Part shown: one piece after another, positions 42,230-50,053 of the stretch | Numbering within the stretch: the first letter of the stretch is position 1 | How the letters are laid out: every line of letters begins with the position of its first letter | Source of the DNA: Escherichia coli | GTDB taxonomy: Bacteria > Pseudomonadota > Gammaproteobacteria > Enterobacterales > Enterobacteriaceae | Length of the DNA: 64,000 nucleotides | Assembly: GCF_009931435.1 (NCBI RefSeq) | Contig: NZ_CP043414.1 | Strand: one strand, 5' to 3' | Position numbers and translations under genes: made by a program | Notes under the pieces: model-generated | What the model saw: only the letters and a program-made list of their open reading frames with translations | Databases searched by the model: none | What the model was told of the DNA's origin: nothing

Positions 42230-43900
42230 ATGGATAATGCAGAACTCGCCATTGGTATCGATCTCGGCACTACCAATAGTTTAATTGCCGTCTGGAAAGA
42301 CGGTGCCGCGCAATTAATTCCAAATAAGTTCGGTGAATATTTAACACCATCCATCATTAGTATGGATGAAAATAATCATATTTTAGTCGGAAAACCGGCT
42401 GTATCACGGCGCACTTCGCATCCGGATAAAACCGCCGCATTATTTAAACGCTCAATGGGCAGTAATACCAACTGGCGGTTAGGCAGCGACACATTTAACG
42501 CACCAGAACTGTCCTCTTTGGTCTTACGTTCATTAAAAGAAGATGCCGAAGAATTTCTGCAACGTTCTATTAAAAATGTGGTGATCTCTGTTCCGGCTTA
42601 TTTCAGTGATGAACAACGCAAGCATACCCGTTTAGCAGCGGAGCTAGCCGGGTTAAATGCGGTACGCTTAATTAATGAACCCACAGCAGCTGCGATGGCA
42701 TATGGCCTGCATACGCAACAAAATACCCGCTCGCTGGTTTTTGATCTCGGTGGCGGCACGTTTGACGTCACGGTGCTCGAATACGCCACGCCGGTGATTG
42801 AAGTTCACGCCTCCGCTGGCGACAACTTTCTTGGCGGCGAAGATTTTACTCATATGCTGGTGGATGAAGTTTTAAAACGCGCCGCAGTGGCTAAAAACAT
42901 GCTCAACGAAAGTGAGCTGGCAGCCCTGTACACCAGCGTGGAAGCGGCAAAATGCAGCAATCAATTACCGCTGCAAATTAGCTGGCAGTATCAGGAAGAA
43001 ACGCGTGAGTGCGAATTTTACGAGAACGAACTGGAAGATTTGTGGTTGCCGCTGCTCAATCGCTTGCGAGTGCCGATTGAACAGGCGTTGCGCGATGCAC
43101 GTCTGAAGCCAAGTCAAATCGACAGTCTGGTGCTGGTTGGCGGCGCATCACAAATGCCGCTGGTGCAGCGAATCGCCGTGCGTCTGTTTGGCAAATTACC
43201 GTATCAAAGTTACGACCCGAGTACTATTGTCGCGCTGGGCGCAGCGATCCAGGCCGCCTGCCGCTTACGCAGCGAAGACATTGAAGAAGTGATCCTCACC
43301 GATATTTGCCCCTACTCCTTAGGTGTTGAAGTTAACCGCCAGGGCGTTTCCGGCATTTTCTCACCGATTATTGAACGAAACACCACTGTACCGGTGTCGC
43401 GTGTAGAAACTTACTCGACCATGCACCCGGAACAGGATTCAATTACGGTTAACGTCTATCAGGGAGAAAACCACAAAGTTAAAAATAACATTCTGGTAGA
43501 ATCCTTCGATGTGCCGTTGAAGAAAACCGGGGCTTATCAGTCGATTGATATTCGCTTTAGTTATGATATCAACGGGTTGCTTGAAGTTGACGTGCTTCTG
43601 GAAGACGGCAGCGTTAAGTCCAGAGTCATTAACCACAGCCCGGTAACGTTAAGTACCCAGCAAATTGAAGAGAGTCGGGCAAGGTTATCCGCATTAAAAA
43701 TTTATCCGCGCGATATGCTTATCAACCGTACCTTTAAGGCCAAACTGGAAGAGTTGTGGGCGCGGGCGCTGGGTGACGAGCGAGAAGAGATCGGCCGGGT
43801 GATCACCGATTTTGATGCGGCGTTGCAGTCAAACGATATGGCCCGCGTCGATGAAGTTCGGCGACGGGCGAGCGATTATTTGGCTATTGAGATCCCTTAA
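42230..43900 (+). CDS. hscC: Hsp70-family chaperone HscC (truncated substrate-binding lid relative to DnaK)
   Basis: ORF track 42230..43900, 556 aa; IGIDLGTTNS and DLGGGTFD Hsp70 signatures. Confidence 0.94.
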   Translation: MDNAELAIGIDLGTTNSLIAVWKDGAAQLIPNKFGEYLTPSIISMDENNHILVGKPAVSRRTSHPDKTAALFKRSMGSNTNWRLGSDTFNAPELSSLVLRSLKEDAEEFLQRSIKNVVISVPAYFSDEQRKHTRLAAELAGLNAVRLINEPTAAAMAYGLHTQQNTRSLVFDLGGGTFDVTVLEYATPVIEVHASAGDNFLGGEDFTHMLVDEVLKRAAVAKNMLNESELAALYTSVEAAKCSNQLPLQISWQYQEETRECEFYENELEDLWLPLLNRLRVPIEQALRDARLKPSQIDSLVLVGGASQMPLVQRIAVRLFGKLPYQSYDPSTIVALGAAIQAACRLRSEDIEEVILTDICPYSLGVEVNRQGVSGIFSPIIERNTTVPVSRVETYSTMHPEQDSITVNVYQGENHKVKNNILVESFDVPLKKTGAYQSIDIRFSYDINGLLEVDVLLEDGSVKSRVINHSPVTLSTQQIEESRARLSALKIYPRDMLINRTFKAKLEELWARALGDEREEIGRVITDFDAALQSNDMARVDEVRRRASDYLAIEIP

Positions 43901-43906
43901 ACACGG

Positions 43907-43947
43907 CTGCCGGATGCGGCATAAACGCTGCATCCGGCATCGGCGCA
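43907..43947. repeat. REP-like palindrome between convergent hscC and djlC
   Basis: gctgccggatgcggcataaacgctgcatccggcatcggcgc. Confidence 0.75.
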
Positions 43948-43959
43948 AAAAACACATCC

Positions 43960-45411
43960 TCAGCTAAACAACATCGCGATTTTTCCGAGAGCATAGCCTA
44001 TCACCAGCACCGTTAAGCTGATTTTGATAATGCTGGTAATGCTCTGTGGTTTTTCATCCTCATCATTTTTTTCTTCGTGGTTTTCAGGTGTTGGCTCATC
44101 GACATCTTCATCCTCCGGCTCGAGTTTCACTTTCGTCAACAGCATCCGCGTGATAATGGCCTCTAATGGATGAGCATCTCCACCTTCCAGCCTTGTATTA
44201 AGACGGGCCAGCATCTCTTGTTTCGGGAACGCTTCCAGCACAACCTGTTCCGCTACACGATACAAATCCAGTAACGGTGAATCTTGTTCTGTCTCGCTAC
44301 CGACTCTCGATTTCCACCATGCCCATGCTTTGCGCTTGAAGAATAACGACTCAATAAACGATTGACCTAACGGCGATAATTTTCCGCTATGTAAAATTTC
44401 CGCCCATAACAGCCGCGTCCGGGCGCTCTCACCAGGAACATATTTCAACGGGTTACCTTGCGCATCAATCATGCTTTGCGCTTCGATAACTATCACTAAC
44501 AGCGCGAAATAATCCGGGCAATGTTGCGCACTCCACTGCAGTAATAAATTATCGGCTTGTGTAGACGGATAACTTTCCCAGTAACCGCAGAGATCGGCAA
44601 GCATGCTTTCCCCCTCGCCGCAGTACAACCGTTGCGCACACTGGTAATATCGGGCATCTTCACTTTCTGGTTCTTCCGTTTGCCACTGTTGCGCTACAGG
44701 AATGAGTTCCGCCATACCTGTTTGCACCGAGCTGTACCAGCGCAACAGTTTGCGATGTAACTTTGCATCATCAGGAATGAACCACGGACCTTCCATTGCC
44801 ATAAACGCAGTGACATAGTCAGGATGGTAACGGCAGCAGCGTTCCAGCGCGAAGTAATACTCAACAGTCTGGTTCTGCAACGCGACGGGATATTCCAGAA
44901 GGCTAAGGAAATCGAAACAATCACCAGCCTGAATGGCCTCAAGAAAAGCCTCCCTTTCTTCCTCATCCATTCCTTCGCTGTCATTAAACGAATGCCAGTT
45001 CAAACGCTCTGCCAGCAAAGAAGCACAATTTAATGAAAGATATCGCGCTTCTATAGCGACTGCACACAGCGGCCAGCGTAATTGATCGACATCCTCCATG
45101 TTCCAGGTATTTAATTGCTGAATAAATTTCTGCCAGGCGGAGGGCTGAAAACGATCACTTTCAGAATCCAGTAATGCCCTGAATGCACGTAGTATTTCAT
45201 GTTCAGCGGCGGCATCTTTTTCTTCATCATCTGCTTCCGCGACAGGATTTACCGCCAGTCGCAGCGCCTCTTCATAGGCCTGGCGTAATGCTTTAAACCC
45301 CTGCGGATCGGTTTCGGGATGACACAACGGTAAGCGAGCAAGATAAGCCTGGCGGATAATGTCTATTTGCGTCGTGCTTTCAATTTCGAGGATTTGCCAA
45401 CATGTTTTCAT
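43960..45411 (-). CDS. djlC: tail-anchored J-domain co-chaperone of HscC
   Basis: ORF track 43960..45411, 483 aa; N-terminal J-like segment (…[24 protein letters not shown]), acidic linker, C-terminal hydrophobic anchor ([18 protein letters not shown]). Confidence 0.85.
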
Positions 45412-46115
45412 AGGTCGCTCACATCCTTAAGCGTTACCGGGCATTCAGGCTGGACAGTTAATGGCTGCCAGGGAAGCGTGGCATAGAAACGGTCGCTTCC
45501 CGCTGCCAGCTCTTCGAACATCCGACTCCCGGCGCTATCGTATTTGTACAGGGTTAGCGCCTCGCGTAGCGAAGCGTTGTCTTCGCACTGAGAAGATTGC
45601 CAGTAGAGACGCCCTAACGAATAGGCGGAAAAATAGTGCATCCAGCTGTGATAGTAATGGTGTGCTCGTATATAGACGCGCGATTGCAGCCATAAACTCT
45701 CGTCTTCCGTCAGCCACTTGTTGAGCACACCAACCCGTGATAAAAAACCCATCCGCACATAATCCCAGGCTTTGATTCCCCCTTCCCCACAACACATAGC
45801 GGTTTGGGCAACGAATTGGGTATAAATCAACCCTCTCTCCGAGCCGCCAGCAATTAATGCTTTCCACTCTTCAGGGGAAGAGCGATGCCATGTCAGATAT
45901 AAGCCAGCTAAATCATTGGCATGACCATCATCGGTCATCTGATAAATAGTCTGAATTAAATCATCACGATTATTTATTCCCCAGGATGATGAGAGATCGA
46001 ATTCTTTTATCCCGGTATACATTTTTGGCGAGTCATGCGCGGGCTTGCAACCCTGATTAAGTATTTCCATGGGCGTAGAAAGCGCAAAAAGAAGATATTG
46101 TTCTTCCTTATTCAT
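45408..46115 (-). CDS. ybeU: DUF1266-type protein YbeU (paralog of YbeR)
   Basis: ORF track 45408..46115, 235 aa; stop overlaps djlC start (ATGA). Confidence 0.85.
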
Positions 46116-46216
46116 TTGTTAATAATCCCTTAAGTGCATTAACTGACTACTTTTTTATTATTGATGAGTATAAACTTGACGCTTTCAAAATAAAAAGAAA
46201 ATCGAAGCATTCACAC

Positions 46217-46771
46217 ATGAATAAAAAATTAATGTATATATTCGCAATATTTATAGTTGCAGCAATAACCTGTATTAGCCAACCCAAGAAAACGACGTTG
46301 CGTGATAAAGCCATGGCGAATTATGCCTTTGATTATTTAAGCTCACCGGGCAGTCTTCCATTCACCACGGCAGCCACGGAGCTTTCCGCGATTCATGGTC
46401 ACTCAACGTCGCAATATCGCCTTGGAGAATTTTATCTTCATGGTAGCGACGGTAAACCACTGGATTATACACAGGCGAGATACTGGTATGAGCAATCAGC
46501 GGAACAGGAAAATCCACGCGCGCAAAGTAAACTGGGGTGGATCTACCTCAAAGGTCTGGGGGTCAAACCCGATACCCGTAAAGCAATTCTCTGGTATAAG
46601 GAAGCAGCTGAACAAGGGCATGTTCATGCACAATACACGTTGGGTTTGATCTACAGAAACGGCACGGGTATTAGCACCAACAATTATGAAGCTCGCAAAT
46701 GGTTAGAACTGGCGGCAGAGCAACATTATAAAAATGCGGAAAGATTACTTGCAGAGCTTCCCGCACATTAA
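46217..46771 (+). CDS. ybeT: Sel1-repeat (TPR-like) protein with N-terminal signal/anchor
   Basis: ORF track 46217..46771, 184 aa; hydrophobic N-terminus, repeated AQxxLGxxYxxGxGVxxD Sel1 units. Confidence 0.85.
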
Positions 46772-46780
46772 CGTCGACTT

Positions 46781-48208
46781 TCACCCGAACAGATGAAGTA
46801 TTTTCCCTATCAAACCAGCAAAGATAAAAATATAGAAAATAATTTTAATGATGCCCAGACAGCCCGGCCCACCATCGTCAACGGGCATTGGCTGCGGTTG
46901 CGGCTCCGGCTCGACGGTTTGTTGCCCGGCAAAATTCGCCGACTGAATTAATAATCGTCGAATTATTAATGCGTCCAGAGGACAACGATCTTCTGCATCA
47001 AGGCGGGCGACGATCGGCATCAATGATTCTTCTGTAGGTTGGCTGGTCTGCACTAATTGTTTAGCAACTAAATATAATGTCCATAAGGGATGCTGTGTAT
47101 CACGCGTGAGTGAGATTCGCGGCTTACGCCCTTTGTGCAAAACCATCTCAACCAGAGAACGCCCCAGCGCAGAGAGTTTCTCATCGCTGAGTATTTCGTA
47201 TAATTGAAAGCGCGTACGCGCACTGTCACCAGGAACATAAAGTAACGGTTTCCCCTGATCGTTAACCAGTTCACGTGCTTCAATCATCATCACGACTAAC
47301 GGGTAATAATCGACCCGATGCTGACGGCACCATTGCAACATTAAAGCATCCGCCTGGGTGGAGGGATACTCGCGCCAGTAGTCACAAAGTTCTGCCAGCA
47401 GGCTTTCGCCTTCTCCACAATAGACGCGTTGCGCGTATTCATAATAACGCGCATCTTCATTATCAGGTTCAGCTTCCCGCCACGACCGGGCGTAATCCAG
47501 AAGTTCGGGGATATCCAGACGGCTTGTGCTATACCAGCGGAGTAAATTTCTGTGCAAATTTGCATCATCGGGGATAATCACTGCGCGATGTTGCGCTAAA
47601 TACAATGTCAGCCATTCTGGATGCGATGACCAAATCCGCGCGAACATTTGGTAAAAATCAATGGTGTCATTTTGTACGGCAACGGGCAGATGCAGAATGG
47701 TCTGGAAGTTAAAAACATTCCCCTTCGCAATGGCATATAAAAAGGATTCCAGTTCTTCTTCGTCTATTTCCCCGACGTTTTCCTCCTGCAACCACCGCAA
47801 TCTTTCTGCTAATAACACCACGCACTCGAAGGATAAATGGGCAGTGTTCATGGCTATTGTGCACAGCGACCAGCGTAATTCATCAATATCTTCCATCGAG
47901 CAATAATTTAATTGCTGAATGAATCGCTGCCAGGCAGAGGGCAGAAAACGTTCGCTATCAGAGGCGAGTAACGCACGAAAGGCGAGCAGAATTTCATGTT
48001 CTGCAACTTCATGTTCTTCTGGTTGCCAAACAGATTTAGCAGGCGACTGCGCAATCCGTAGCGCCTCCTCATACGCCTGACGAAGTTGTTTAAAACCCTG
48101 CGGATCGGTTTCTGGATGAAAGGACGGTAACAGCGCCAGATAAGCGCGGCGGATAATATCGACGTCAGTTGTTTCCTCTATGTTGAGGATCTTCCAGCAA
48201 TTTTTCAT
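46781..48208 (-). CDS. djlB: tail-anchored J-domain protein (paralog of DjlC)
   Basis: ORF track 46781..48208, 475 aa; same N-terminal J-like segment (…[24 protein letters not shown]) and C-terminal anchor ([18 protein letters not shown]). Confidence 0.85.
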
Positions 48209-48912
48209 AGATCGCTCATATCCTTAAGCGTTTCCGGGCATGCAGAATAGTAAGCCAATGGTTGCCAGGACAAGGTAGGGTAATACGCATCATCACTGGC
48301 AAATAATTGATAAAACATATCATTGCCGGAATCGTCGTATTCTTTACGCGCTAAAAATTCACGTAATAACTGAAGATTATCATCTTCGGGAGACTGCCAA
48401 TATTGCCGACCAAAGGTATAACCGGCAAAGTATTGCTGCCAGTTACTATAATAACGTAGCGCCCGTAGATGAATGCGCGACTGGATCCATAGACTTTCTT
48501 CTTCGCTCAACCAGTTATTAAGTACGCCCATTCGGCTTAAAAAACCCATCCGGACATAATCCCAGGCTTTGATTCCCCCTTCGCCACAGCATTCGGCGGT
48601 GCTGGCGACAAATTGCGCATAAGCCTGACCTTGCTCATTTAGTTCAGCAAGATAATCACGCCATTCACATGGAGAATAACGAAACCAGCGGTGATAAAAC
48701 CCTGCCAACCGCGCAGCATGACCGTTATCCATCATTCGGTGAATTGTACGCAGCAGGTCATCACGGTCATCAATTCCCCATGAGGAAGAAAGGTCAAAAA
48801 AGCATGTACCTAAATACATTTTGGGGGATGAATGCGAAGGTAAACAGCATTCATTGCGTATTTCCATCGGAGTGGAAAGTGCAAACAATATTTTTTGCGA
48901 CTCCATGTCCAT
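48205..48912 (-). CDS. ybeR: DUF1266-type protein YbeR (paralog of YbeU)
   Basis: ORF track 48205..48912, 235 aa; stop overlaps djlB start. Confidence 0.85.
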
Positions 48913-49075
48913 ATAATTTATCCTTAAACATTCATTTAATGAATGTAAACTACATTGCGAGACTCATTTATTTATACTTTTCTGACGCAACATAATACGC
49001 ATAAAATAAGGCTTACGCAAAAATGGAATACATAAAAATATAATATGTTTTATCTACAACCATAAGGAAATGATA

Positions 49076-50053
49076 ATGATTTTTACGTCAAGTTGCTGCG
49101 ATAACTTATCAATAGATGAGATTATCGAACGTGCTGAAAAAGGCGATTGCGAGGCTCAATATATTGTTGGGTTTTATTATAATCGCGATAGCGCAATTGA
49201 CTCTCCGGATGACGAAAAGGCCTTTTACTGGCTGAAGCTGGCCGCTGAGCAAGGTCATTGTGAAGCACAATATTCCTTAGGGCAAAAGTATACCGAGGAT
49301 AAAAGCCGTCATAAAGATAATGGGCAAGCCATCTTTTGGCTGAAAAAAGCTGCCCTACAAGGCCATACTTTCGCTTCCAACGCCCTTGGCTGGATACTGG
49401 ATCGTGGAGAAGACCCCAACTATAAAGAAGCGGTTGTCTGGTATCAGATAGCCGCGGAGAGCGGAATGTCTTATGCGCAAAATAATCTTGGGTGGATGTA
49501 CAGAAATGGCAACGGAGTCGCACAAGACTATGCGCTGGCATTTTTCTGGTACAAACAAGCTGCATTGCAAGGCCATAGTTACGCACAAGACAATCTGGCC
49601 GATCTTTATGAAGACGGTAAAGGTGTTGCCCAAAACAAAGCTCTTGCCGCATTCTGGTATTTGAAAAGCGCACAGCAAGGTAATCGGCACGCTCAATTTC
49701 AAATTGCGTGGGATTATAACGCTGGCGAAGGGGTTGACCAGGACTATAAGCAAGCAATGTACTGGTATCTGAAGGCTGCCGCTCAGGAAAGCGTCGGCGC
49801 TTACGTTAACATCGGCTATATGTATAAACACGGTCAAGGCGTTGAGAAGGATTATCAGGCCGCCTTTGAATGGTTTACGAAAGCCGCTGAATGCGATAAT
49901 GCCACTGCCTGGTATAACCTTGCCATTATGTATCATTACGGAGAAGGAAGACCTGTCGATCTCCGACAGGCTCTCGATCTGTATCGTAAAGCTCAGTCAT
50001 CCGGTACCAGGGATGTCAGTCAAAAAATCCGTGAGATTGAAGATTTACTGTAG
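49076..50053 (+). CDS. ybeQ: Sel1-repeat protein YbeQ
   Basis: ORF track 49070..50053; start placed at second ATG 49076 (aagga 7 nt upstream), 325 aa; ~8 tandem Sel1 repeats. Confidence 0.85.
   Translation: MIFTSSCCDNLSIDEIIERAEKGDCEAQYIVGFYYNRDSAIDSPDDEKAFYWLKLAAEQGHCEAQYSLGQKYTEDKSRHKDNGQAIFWLKKAALQGHTFASNALGWILDRGEDPNYKEAVVWYQIAAESGMSYAQNNLGWMYRNGNGVAQDYALAFFWYKQAALQGHSYAQDNLADLYEDGKGVAQNKALAAFWYLKSAQQGNRHAQFQIAWDYNAGEGVDQDYKQAMYWYLKAAAQESVGAYVNIGYMYKHGQGVEKDYQAAFEWFTKAAECDNATAWYNLAIMYHYGEGRPVDLRQALDLYRKAQSSGTRDVSQKIREIEDLL

What the first reader, a model, noticed from the sequence alone, without database searches (positions are those of the whole stretch)
42230..50053. Orphan Hsp70 (hscC) next to a tandemly duplicated Sel1 / 235-aa / tail-anchored J-protein module
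The segment holds two paralogous three-gene units in the same layout: ybeQ(+) | ybeR(-) djlB(-) and ybeT(+) | ybeU(-) djlC(-), with hscC convergent on djlC. The two 235-aa proteins share long identical blocks ([40 protein letters not shown] / [10 protein letters not shown]). The two J-proteins share the N-terminal segment and a C-terminal hydrophobic tail, and stretches of the DNA are still near-identical (for example tttaaaccctgcggatcggtttc in both). In each unit the 235-aa gene stop overlaps the J-protein start (ATGA at 45408-45411 and 48205-48208), implying translational coupling. Both J-like segments read His-Pro-Glu where the canonical J-domain has His-Pro-Asp. The Sel1 partners differ: YbeT has a hydrophobic N-terminus, YbeQ does not. 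A dedicated membrane-tethered Hsp70 system with duplicated adaptor sets is suggested, but its client and physiological role are not evident from the sequence; a stress or phage-related role is speculation.
Basis: partly seen in the sequence, partly recalled or inferred. Interest (0 to 1): 0.75.

Follow-up and report, generated by a model that had tools for sequence, protein, structure and literature searches.

The report
E. coli HscC chaperone gene cassette
This is the already-annotated third Hsp70 chaperone locus of E. coli (hscC with its two membrane-anchored J-protein partners), and comparison with other bacteria shows that the neighbouring uncharacterised DUF1266 and Sel1/TPR genes are conserved parts of the same machine, whose client is still unknown.

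Summary
The segment holds hscC(+), djlC(-), ybeU(-), ybeT(+), djlB(-), ybeR(-) and ybeQ(+). YbeU/YbeR are 59% identical, DjlC/DjlB 52%. Both DUF1266-to-djl junctions overlap as ATGA, both J-domains read HPE, and both J-proteins end in a hydrophobic tail.

Most of this is published: the HscC-DjlC/DjlB pairing, the HPE variant, the DjlC tail anchor, and H-NS/SlyA control.

What I could not find in the searchable literature is the wider association. A DUF1266 gene coupled to an HPE-type J-protein gene sits next to an HscC-type Hsp70 in every sufficiently long context I sampled. These range from Klebsiella and Budviciaceae to Gallaecimonas and a 30%-GC genome. Sel1 or TPR repeats are fused to the J-protein in several of these, and one protein is a single-chain J-TPR-DUF1266 fusion.

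An AlphaFold model of tethered YbeU-DjlC scores pTM 0.78, which suggests a complex. DUF1266 is an all-helical fold with no solved relative.

Best reading: one Hsp70 is served by two paralogous membrane-tethered adaptor sets, each a J-protein plus DUF1266 plus Sel1. I found no support for an anti-phage role. The block is dispensable: it is absent in 18% of complete E. coli genomes.

The parts
42230..43900 (+). hscC: specialised Hsp70 (556 aa), convergent on djlC
   Evidence: ORF. DnaK/HscA models match at E 1e-113 to 1e-115 but far below their equivalog cut-offs. Best solved relatives are DnaK chains; no chain named HscC was among the matches. RefSeq name hscC.
43908..43943 (.). REP-like GC-rich palindrome between the convergent hscC and djlC stops
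   Evidence: Sequence read (GCCGGATGCGGC...GCTGCATCCGGC). The gap is 59% GC. A role as terminator or mRNA stabiliser is inferred.
43960..45411 (-). djlC: class C J-domain protein (483 aa) with an N-terminal HPE J-domain, a TPR-like helical body and a C-terminal tail anchor
   Evidence: Precomputed Pfam PF27158 DjlB_C_2nd on homologues. RefSeq name co-chaperone DjlC.
45313..45321 (-). HPE codons (DjlC residues 31-33)
   Evidence: Translation. The one search match at 45293-45315 is the reverse complement of E-T-D-P-Q-G-F-K. 113 of 120 fetched homologues read HPE; the other 7 did not match the N-terminal motif pattern; none was counted as HPD.
43966..44022 (-). DjlC C-terminal transmembrane tail (residues 464-482)
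   Evidence: Hydropathy maximum 1.99. Membrane insertion of DjlC is reported in the literature.
45408..46115 (-). ybeU: DUF1266 protein (235 aa)
   Evidence: Pfam PF06889 E 4.4e-45. AlphaFold model pLDDT 93.9, all-helical.
45408..45411 (-). ATGA overlap of the ybeU stop and the djlC start
   Evidence: The same overlap occurs in other lineages.
46116..46216 (.). AT-rich divergent ybeU / ybeT control region (28% GC)
   Evidence: ybeT and ybeU-hscD(djlC) are both raised by SlyA and listed in the H-NS regulon (PMC5797941).
46217..46771 (+). ybeT: Sel1-repeat protein (184 aa, 3 repeats) with an N-terminal hydrophobic segment
46781..48208 (-). djlB: paralogous J-domain protein (475 aa) with HPE at residues 31-33 (nt 48110-48118) and a tail anchor at residues 450-468 (nt 46805-46861)
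48205..48912 (-). ybeR: paralogous DUF1266 protein (235 aa). Its stop overlaps the djlB start (ATGA at 48205-48208)
48913..49069 (.). AT-rich divergent ybeR / ybeQ control region (25.5% GC)
49070..50053 (+). ybeQ: cytoplasmic Sel1-repeat protein (327 aa, 8 repeats)

Best explanation
The block encodes E. coli's third Hsp70 system as a multi-part machine.

Shown in the literature:
- HscC is a specialised Hsp70.
- DjlC, a J-protein with an HPE J-domain, stimulates its ATPase. DjlB is assumed to do the same.
- DjlC is anchored to the cytoplasmic face of the inner membrane by a C-terminal tail.

Inferred here:
- Each J-protein is made together with a DUF1266 protein (YbeU with DjlC, YbeR with DjlB) through stop/start overlap.
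- The DUF1266 protein binds the TPR-like helical body of its J-protein as a stoichiometric subunit.
- That subunit helps select or gate the client.
- A Sel1-repeat protein (YbeQ, possibly YbeT) supplies a further scaffold. In other bacteria this scaffold is fused to the J-protein.

The duplicated DUF1266/J-protein pair lets a single Hsp70 be recruited to two different membrane-proximal clients or sites. The cassette is silenced by H-NS and relieved by SlyA. It is dispensable and often lost. The client remains unknown.
For: Published facts:
- HscC-DjlC ATPase stimulation, 50% DjlB/DjlC identity, tail anchoring, and Cd2+ and UV phenotypes.
- HPE tolerated and known.
- ybeT and the ybeU-djlC operon raised by SlyA and in the H-NS regulon.
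- A DUF1266 gene derepressed 308-fold in an hns mutant.

Conserved linkage found here. A DUF1266 gene directly abuts an HPE J-protein gene with an HscC-type Hsp70 (42-75% identical to the window's) adjacent or within about 3 kb in:
- Klebsiella spallanzanii and three Budviciaceae (Pragia fontium and two Limnobaculum species). A fourth, Leminorella grimontii, has the DUF1266/J-protein pair but no Hsp70 within the fetched 8 kb flanks.
- Five metagenomic lineages.
- A 30%-GC genome.
- Gallaecimonas.
The ATGA overlap is conserved in 8 of 9 junctions checked.

Fusions:
- Sel1 fused to the J-protein.
- TPR fused to the J-protein.
- A single-chain J(HPE)-TPR-DUF1266 protein.
- TPR plus DUF1266 in 5-8 of 42 long DUF1266 proteins.

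Other support:
- Independent tandem duplications of the pair in two lineages.
- Tethered YbeU-DjlC AlphaFold model: pLDDT 85.9, pTM 0.78. That is above the roughly 0.58 ceiling expected if the two bodies were placed independently.
Against: - No direct evidence of YbeU-DjlC binding. The model used an artificial linker and only 14 paired sequences, and neither coordinates nor the error map could be inspected.
- DUF1266 also occurs in secreted multidomain proteins without any Hsp70 (Cu_amine_oxidN1, SLH, LRR). Its activity is therefore not intrinsically chaperone-linked.
- YbeT's hydrophobic N-terminus may export it to the periplasm, away from the partners.
- Klebsiella and Budviciaceae units carry no Sel1 gene, so Sel1 is not obligatory.
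- The proteins are below detection in laboratory E. coli, and 18% of complete genomes lack the block.
Confidence: 0.6

Rival explanations
1. DUF1266 is not an adaptor but the dedicated client or a latent effector that HscC-Djl holds, activates or disassembles. The cassette would then be a conflict or stress-sensing system, for example phage- or envelope-stress-triggered.
For: - The block is island-like: lower GC (0.47 vs 0.52), H-NS-silenced, present or absent among strains, and repeatedly duplicated.
- Translational coupling and fusions are equally compatible with a chaperone-client pair.
- ybeT was a hit in a phage TraDIS screen.
Against: - No PADLOC model matches any of the seven proteins beyond a marginal repeat hit.
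- No nuclease, toxin or NTPase domain is present.
- Flanking genes are housekeeping.
- The ybeT knockout behaved like wild type under phage challenge.
- No paper links HscC to phage defence.
Confidence: 0.15
2. DUF1266 is a CbpM-like modulator. It is co-expressed to bind and inhibit its cognate J-protein until a signal releases it.
For: - A small protein is co-translated with a J-protein, as in the cbpA-cbpM operon. CbpM-J-domain complex 3UCS is cited in the review.
- A predicted YbeU-DjlC complex.
Against: - No homology to CbpM. YbeU matches only DUF1266 and has no solved relative.
- Gene order is the reverse of cbpAM.
- The single-chain J-TPR-DUF1266 fusion and the extracytoplasmic DUF1266 proteins fit a binding module better than a dedicated J-domain inhibitor.
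Confidence: 0.15
3. The genes are neighbours without a shared function: a decaying, silenced remnant in which only HscC-DjlC matters.
For: - Frequent pseudogenes and deletions: E. coli C has a frameshifted djlC and an internal stop in ybeQ, AZ 186 has lost djlB-ybeR, and others have IS1 replacement or complete absence.
- Proteins are undetectable in the laboratory.
Against: - Linkage of DUF1266 with the HPE J-protein and Hsp70 is kept at 22-44% protein identity across distant taxa, with two different gene orders and conserved overlaps.
- Domain fusions exist.
Confidence: 0.07

Closest known systems
E. coli K-12 HscC (Hsc62) / DjlC (YbeV, Hsc56) / DjlB (YbeS) chaperone system
   Same: It is the same locus. 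Gene order and names match, with about 95-99% DNA identity to E. coli genomes. HPE J-domains, tail anchors, and hscC convergent on djlC all match.
   Different: Published descriptions that I could read treat it as Hsp70 plus J-proteins only. YbeU/YbeR (DUF1266) and YbeT/YbeQ (Sel1) are not assigned to the system. One paper notes them as a 'gene cassette' in Salmonella LT2 and MG1655.
HscA-HscB (Fe-S cluster) specialised Hsp70/J-protein pair
   Same: A dedicated Hsp70 with an exclusive class C J-protein encoded beside it, and no nucleotide exchange factor needed.
   Different: HscB delivers a known client (IscU), is soluble and carries HPD. Here the client is unknown, the J-protein is membrane-anchored and reads HPE, and it comes with DUF1266 and Sel1/TPR partners and in two copies.
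CbpA-CbpM J-protein / modulator operon
   Same: A J-protein co-expressed with a small dedicated partner protein.
   Different: No sequence or fold relation. Gene order is opposite. The partner Hsp70 is DnaK, not a dedicated one.
Eukaryotic TPR co-chaperones and TPR-containing J-proteins (DNAJC3/p58IPK, DNAJC7, Sec63-Sec72, Tom70)
   Different: Similarity is at generic helical-repeat level only. HscC homologues have no conserved EEVD-like C-terminus for a TPR clamp.

Membership tests
Hsp70, HscC subfamily | Full Hsp70 ATPase plus substrate-binding domains, distinct from DnaK and HscA | tested here: met
   DnaK/HscA models match at E 1e-113 to 1e-115, with scores of 379-387 bits against cut-offs of 620-823. 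RefSeq names the orthologue HscC. The linker reads VILTD and the NEPTAA motif is present.
Hsp70, HscC subfamily | [quoted passage not shown] | not testable with these tools
   Reported by Kluck et al. 2002 as summarised in PMC8215388.
J-domain proteins (class C) | Sequence match to the J-domain profile (PF00226) | tested here: inconclusive
   The window's DjlC alone scores E 0.038 over residues 4-47. Across 11 family members, 6 match at E<=1e-3 and 9 at E<=0.1, best 3.7e-7.
J-domain proteins (class C) | His-Pro-Asp tripeptide in the loop between helices II and III | tested here: not met
   Both proteins read HPE. 113 of 120 homologues read HPE; the other 7 did not match the N-terminal motif pattern; none was counted as HPD. 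HPE is reported as the one tolerated replacement, so function is retained even though the canonical motif is not met.
J-domain proteins (class C) | Helix II, loop, helix III topology | tested here: met
DUF1266 (PF06889) | Profile match over the whole domain | tested here: met
   YbeU E 4.4e-45, model positions 2-175 of 175. YbeR is 59% identical. AFDB structural neighbours listed are almost all DUF1266/PF06889 proteins or unnamed E. coli/Salmonella orthologues; no other characterised family appears.
Sel1-like repeat proteins (PF08238) | Tandem 36-residue Sel1 repeats | tested here: met
   YbeQ has 8 repeats (6 at E<=1e-3) and YbeT has 3 repeats.
Tail-anchored inner-membrane proteins | Single hydrophobic segment at the extreme C-terminus and none elsewhere | tested here: met
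   Hydropathy maxima fall at DjlC 464-482 of 483 and DjlB 450-468 of 475. Insertion was shown experimentally for DjlC only (Peschke 2018).
Known anti-phage defence systems (PADLOC-DB 2.0) | Any component matching a defence-system model | tested here: not met
   No hits for HscC, DjlC, DjlB, YbeU or YbeR. The Sel1 proteins give only marginal repeat-type hits (E 5e-4 to 1e-3) to PtuA.
CbpM-type J-protein modulators | Homology to CbpM | tested here: not met
   YbeU matches only DUF1266 in Pfam, nothing in NCBIfam and nothing in PDB sequences.

The most novel reading that the evidence does not exclude
HscC systems are phylum-spanning, four-part machines that have not been described as such. The parts are Hsp70, an HPE J-protein with a TPR-like body, DUF1266, and Sel1/TPR. 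DUF1266 is an obligate, co-translated subunit of the J-protein that determines what the Hsp70 acts on. The adaptor pair has been duplicated independently in different lineages, as if client specificity were diversifying, possibly in a conflict or envelope-stress context.
Probability: 0.5. Interest if true: 0.6.

Novelty: already known. Interest (0 to 1): 0.4.

Why it matters
More than twenty years after it was described, HscC is still the one E. coli Hsp70 with no known client. The neighbouring DUF1266 and Sel1/TPR genes are conserved with this Hsp70/J-protein type. In some lineages they are translationally coupled, and in others physically fused. That gives concrete handles. YbeU/YbeR and YbeQ/YbeT become the first proteins to test as adaptors, regulators or clients. 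DUF1266 also gets a first functional context; I found it named in only one searchable paper. If confirmed, this would add a bacterial example of an Hsp70 whose targeting relies on a multi-subunit J-protein adaptor.

Tried and rejected
- NCBIfam gave no family for the Djl or DUF1266 proteins.
- PADLOC gave no defence assignment.
- PDB sequence searches with the YbeU profile and with DjlC found nothing meaningful.
- I looked for an EEVD-like conserved C-terminus on HscC homologues that a TPR or Sel1 clamp could bind. The tails are not conserved.
- The conserved acidic C-terminal tail of the Hsp70-linked DUF1266 proteins (for example [16 protein letters not shown]) looked like a peptide motif. 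However, it overlaps the Shine-Dalgarno-like sequence and start of the downstream djl gene. Nucleotide-level constraint cannot be excluded, so I do not build on it.
- The promoter/terminator consensus scan found no more sites than shuffles.
- The word-index homologue search and the genome contigs peptide scan reached only Enterobacterales. The profile search of representatives was needed for distant relatives.
- The primary papers (Kluck 2002; Barriot 2020) are not held. What they say about neighbouring genes could not be checked.
- The correlation of DUF1266 and Djl divergence (r 0.95) is not corrected for shared phylogeny. I give it little weight.
Full report
**What is there.** The window is Escherichia chromosome, with the order gltJKL, rihA, the block, ybeL, leuS. 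The block is 98.9% identical to one complete E. coli genome and about 95% to most others. RefSeq annotates those loci as hscC, djlC, ybeU, ybeT, djlB, ybeR and ybeQ. The ORF coordinates match the finding exactly.

**The paralogy is real.**
- YbeU and YbeR align end to end without gaps at 59% identity.
- DjlC and DjlB are 52% identical over 427 residues.
- YbeT and YbeQ resemble each other only at the level of Sel1 repeats, about 37%. YbeT has 3 repeats and YbeQ has 8.
- Both DUF1266 stops overlap the J-protein starts as ATGA.
- Both J-proteins read HPE at residues 31-33 and end in a strongly hydrophobic tail. YbeT has a hydrophobic N-terminus and YbeQ does not.

**The duplication is old.** The ybeU and ybeR genes are 62% identical in nucleotides, and third codon positions are 42% identical. 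The longest exact shared run is 29 nt. 'Near-identical DNA' therefore holds only for short runs.

**What is already published.**
- A 2021 review states that only DjlC stimulates HscC ATPase. It also notes that DjlB is 50% identical to DjlC overall and 64% in the J-domain.
- The same review says DjlB is assumed to cooperate with HscC as well, and that both J-proteins are tail-anchored. Membrane insertion was shown for DjlC.
- It reports that hscC and djlB djlC mutants are Cd2+-sensitive, that UV resistance is affected, and that all three proteins are below detection in growing cells.
- HPE in DjlB/DjlC is described as the only tolerated replacement of HPD. HPE occurs in about 1% of J-domains.
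- ybeT and the 'ybeU-hscD' operon are raised by SlyA overproduction and belong to the H-NS regulon.
- A DUF1266 gene is derepressed 308-fold in an hns mutant of strain 042.
- One comparative paper calls YbeQ, YbeR, DjlB, YbeU and DjlC a 'gene cassette' shared by Salmonella LT2 and MG1655.

The locus, the Hsp70/J-protein pairing, the HPE variant and the membrane tether are therefore known. DUF1266 as a term occurs in a single searchable paper. I found no paper assigning YbeU/YbeR or the Sel1 proteins to the HscC system. Two primary papers could not be read.

**Family assignments.**
- YbeU is a full-length DUF1266 domain, E 4.4e-45.
- The window's DjlC alone matches the J-domain profile only weakly, E 0.038. 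Across 11 family members from different lineages, 6 match at E<=1e-3 and 9 at E<=0.1, best 3.7e-7.
- 113 of 120 fetched homologues read HPE; the other 7 did not match the N-terminal motif pattern; none was counted as HPD.
- Recent Pfam annotates the body of these proteins as PF27158, DjlB_C_2nd.
- No defence-system model matches any component in a meaningful way.

**Comparative evidence, the main new result.** A profile of YbeU-like proteins finds 969 DUF1266 clusters at E<=1e-3 among 1.84 billion representatives. I examined the genomic context of stand-alone, signal-less members at decreasing similarity. Wherever the contig was long enough, the same partners appeared:
- Klebsiella spallanzanii: one DUF1266/J-protein unit convergent on hscC, next to ybeL, with no Sel1 gene.
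- Three Budviciaceae (Pragia fontium and two Limnobaculum species): DUF1266, then a 903-908 aa J-protein, with HscC 1.4-3 kb away. In Leminorella grimontii the same pair is present but no Hsp70 lies within the fetched flanks.
- Four metagenomic lineages with 850-921 aa J-proteins and an adjacent Hsp70, plus a short contig with the same order.
- A 30%-GC genome (GCA_000175595.1) with the order Hsp70, J(HPE)-DjlB_C-TPR (858 aa), DUF1266, with overlapping genes.
- Gallaecimonas xiamenensis with Hsp70, a 630-aa J-like/TPR protein, then DUF1266.

The associated Hsp70s are 42-75% identical to the window's HscC; those inspected for it share its V(I/V)(L/M)TD linker. The ATGA overlap is kept in 8 of 9 junctions inspected.

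One short contig showed two tandem DUF1266 genes and no Hsp70 within 2.5 kb. Two others were too short to judge.

**Fusions tie in the repeat proteins.**
- In locus L016, two DUF1266/J-protein units flank a single Hsp70, and both J-proteins carry C-terminal Sel1 repeats.
- In L021 the J-protein carries TPR repeats.
- P0249 is a single chain of J-domain (HPE), TPR and DUF1266.
- Among 42 long DUF1266 proteins, 5-8 also carry TPR families.

The separately encoded Sel1 proteins of E. coli therefore have fused counterparts elsewhere.

**The membrane attachment varies.** E. coli and Klebsiella have a single tail anchor. Three to four long forms have a DUF805 multi-span domain. The Sel1-fused forms have none.

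**Duplication of the pair has happened at least twice.** The two L016 DUF1266 proteins are 49% identical to each other and about 30% to all others. YbeU and YbeR are closest to each other and to the Klebsiella protein.

**Structure.**
- YbeU is predicted with high confidence as an all-helical domain, pLDDT 93.9 and pTM 0.91.
- Near-invariant residues are W45, H65, G113, W117, D118, R121, R127, E139, W158, G168, W172 and W216.
- I built a tethered YbeU-(GGGGS)6-DjlC chain, using an alignment of 14 locus-paired sequences plus unpaired DUF1266 rows. It gave pLDDT 85.9 and pTM 0.78.
- The larger body is 58% of the chain, so independent placement of the two bodies would cap pTM near 0.58. I infer that a defined interface is predicted. 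Contacts could not be listed because coordinates and the error map were not available.

**Population picture.**
- Of 5,426 complete E. coli genomes, 4,448 have a match and 3,661 carry at least 80% of the block in one place.
- E. coli C has one hybrid unit (ybeR plus a frameshifted djlC), consistent with recombination between the paralogues.
- Strain AZ 186 has lost djlB and ybeR.
- Another strain has IS1 in place of the block.
- CFT073 has rihA and ybeL 44 bp apart.
- The block is 46.8% GC against 51.6-52.0% in the flanks. Its two divergent control regions are 25-28% GC, which fits H-NS silencing.

**Interpretation.** The best-supported reading is one Hsp70 served by two paralogous, membrane-tethered adaptor sets. 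Each J-protein is co-translated with a DUF1266 subunit that binds its TPR-like body. Sel1 proteins act as optional extra scaffolds.
- Shown: gene content, paralogy, overlaps, conserved linkage and fusions.
- From the literature: HscC-DjlC activity, the tail anchor, and regulation.
- Inferred: the DUF1266-J-protein complex, a role for DUF1266 in client choice or gating, and the participation of YbeT.

YbeT's N-terminal hydrophobic segment could be a signal peptide.

Rivals are that DUF1266 is the client or a latent effector (a conflict-type system), or a CbpM-like inhibitor, or that the neighbourhood is meaningless. The last is contradicted by the conserved synteny and the fusions. The defence reading has no positive support.

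**Verdict.** The added value is the evidence that DUF1266 and Sel1/TPR belong to the HscC system, which makes the old question of HscC's client more testable.

Noticed in passing
window 43908-43943: A REP-like GC-rich palindrome (GCCGGATGCGGC...GCTGCATCCGGC) fills the 59-bp gap between the convergent hscC and djlC stop codons. It is probably a bidirectional terminator or mRNA stabiliser.
   Followed up: no
L004:1648-3003 (Escherichia sp. MOD1-EC7003): A third Djl-like gene lies between ybeL and ybeQ. It has an HPE J-domain and a C-terminal hydrophobic tail, is split into 93-aa and 344-aa ORFs, and has no DUF1266 partner. It is absent from the window, where the ybeQ-ybeL gap is 69 bp.
   Followed up: partly
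L016:2597-11119 (metagenome contig, 46% GC): An independent tandem duplication of the DUF1266/J-protein pair flanks one Hsp70, with Sel1 repeats fused to both J-proteins. One copy has lost the motif (TPSE in place of HPE).
   Followed up: partly
L024:4112-6004 (Gallaecimonas xiamenensis): The J-like protein next to Hsp70 and DUF1266 reads NPE where the family has HPE. This raises the question of whether it can still stimulate its Hsp70.
   Followed up: no
L017:233-1726 (protein P0249): A single-chain J-domain (HPE), TPR and DUF1266 protein with no Hsp70 gene within the 6.8-kb contig.
   Followed up: partly
window 45408-45440 and 48205-48237; L009, L010, L013 junctions: The Hsp70-linked DUF1266 proteins share an acidic C-terminal tail ([24 protein letters not shown]). 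Its codons also contain the Shine-Dalgarno-like sequence and the ATGA overlap for the downstream J-protein gene. Protein-level and nucleotide-level constraint cannot be separated.
   Followed up: partly
L009-L014, L018 (C-termini of the 850-921 aa J-proteins): Long forms of the J-protein end in a DUF805-type multi-span membrane domain (GRIGRxEY-like motif) instead of the single tail anchor of E. coli.
   Followed up: partly
L001 (E. coli C), L002 (AZ 186), L003 (EM20-18-50), L023 (CFT073): The block is polymorphic. Variants include a hybrid single unit with frameshifted djlC and an internal stop in ybeQ, loss of djlB-ybeR, IS1 replacement, and clean absence with rihA and ybeL 44 bp apart.
   Followed up: partly
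L008:8001-8388 (contig labelled Paenibacillus sp. USDA918EY): The last 388 bp of this contig are 96% identical to E. coli ybeU, while the rest is unrelated. This is most likely a chimeric or contaminated assembly end.
   Followed up: partly
proteins P0185-P0262: Many DUF1266 domains sit in secreted multidomain proteins with Cu_amine_oxidN1, SLH, LRR_5 or Peptidase_M54 domains. The domain therefore also works outside the cytoplasm, without any Hsp70.
   Followed up: partly
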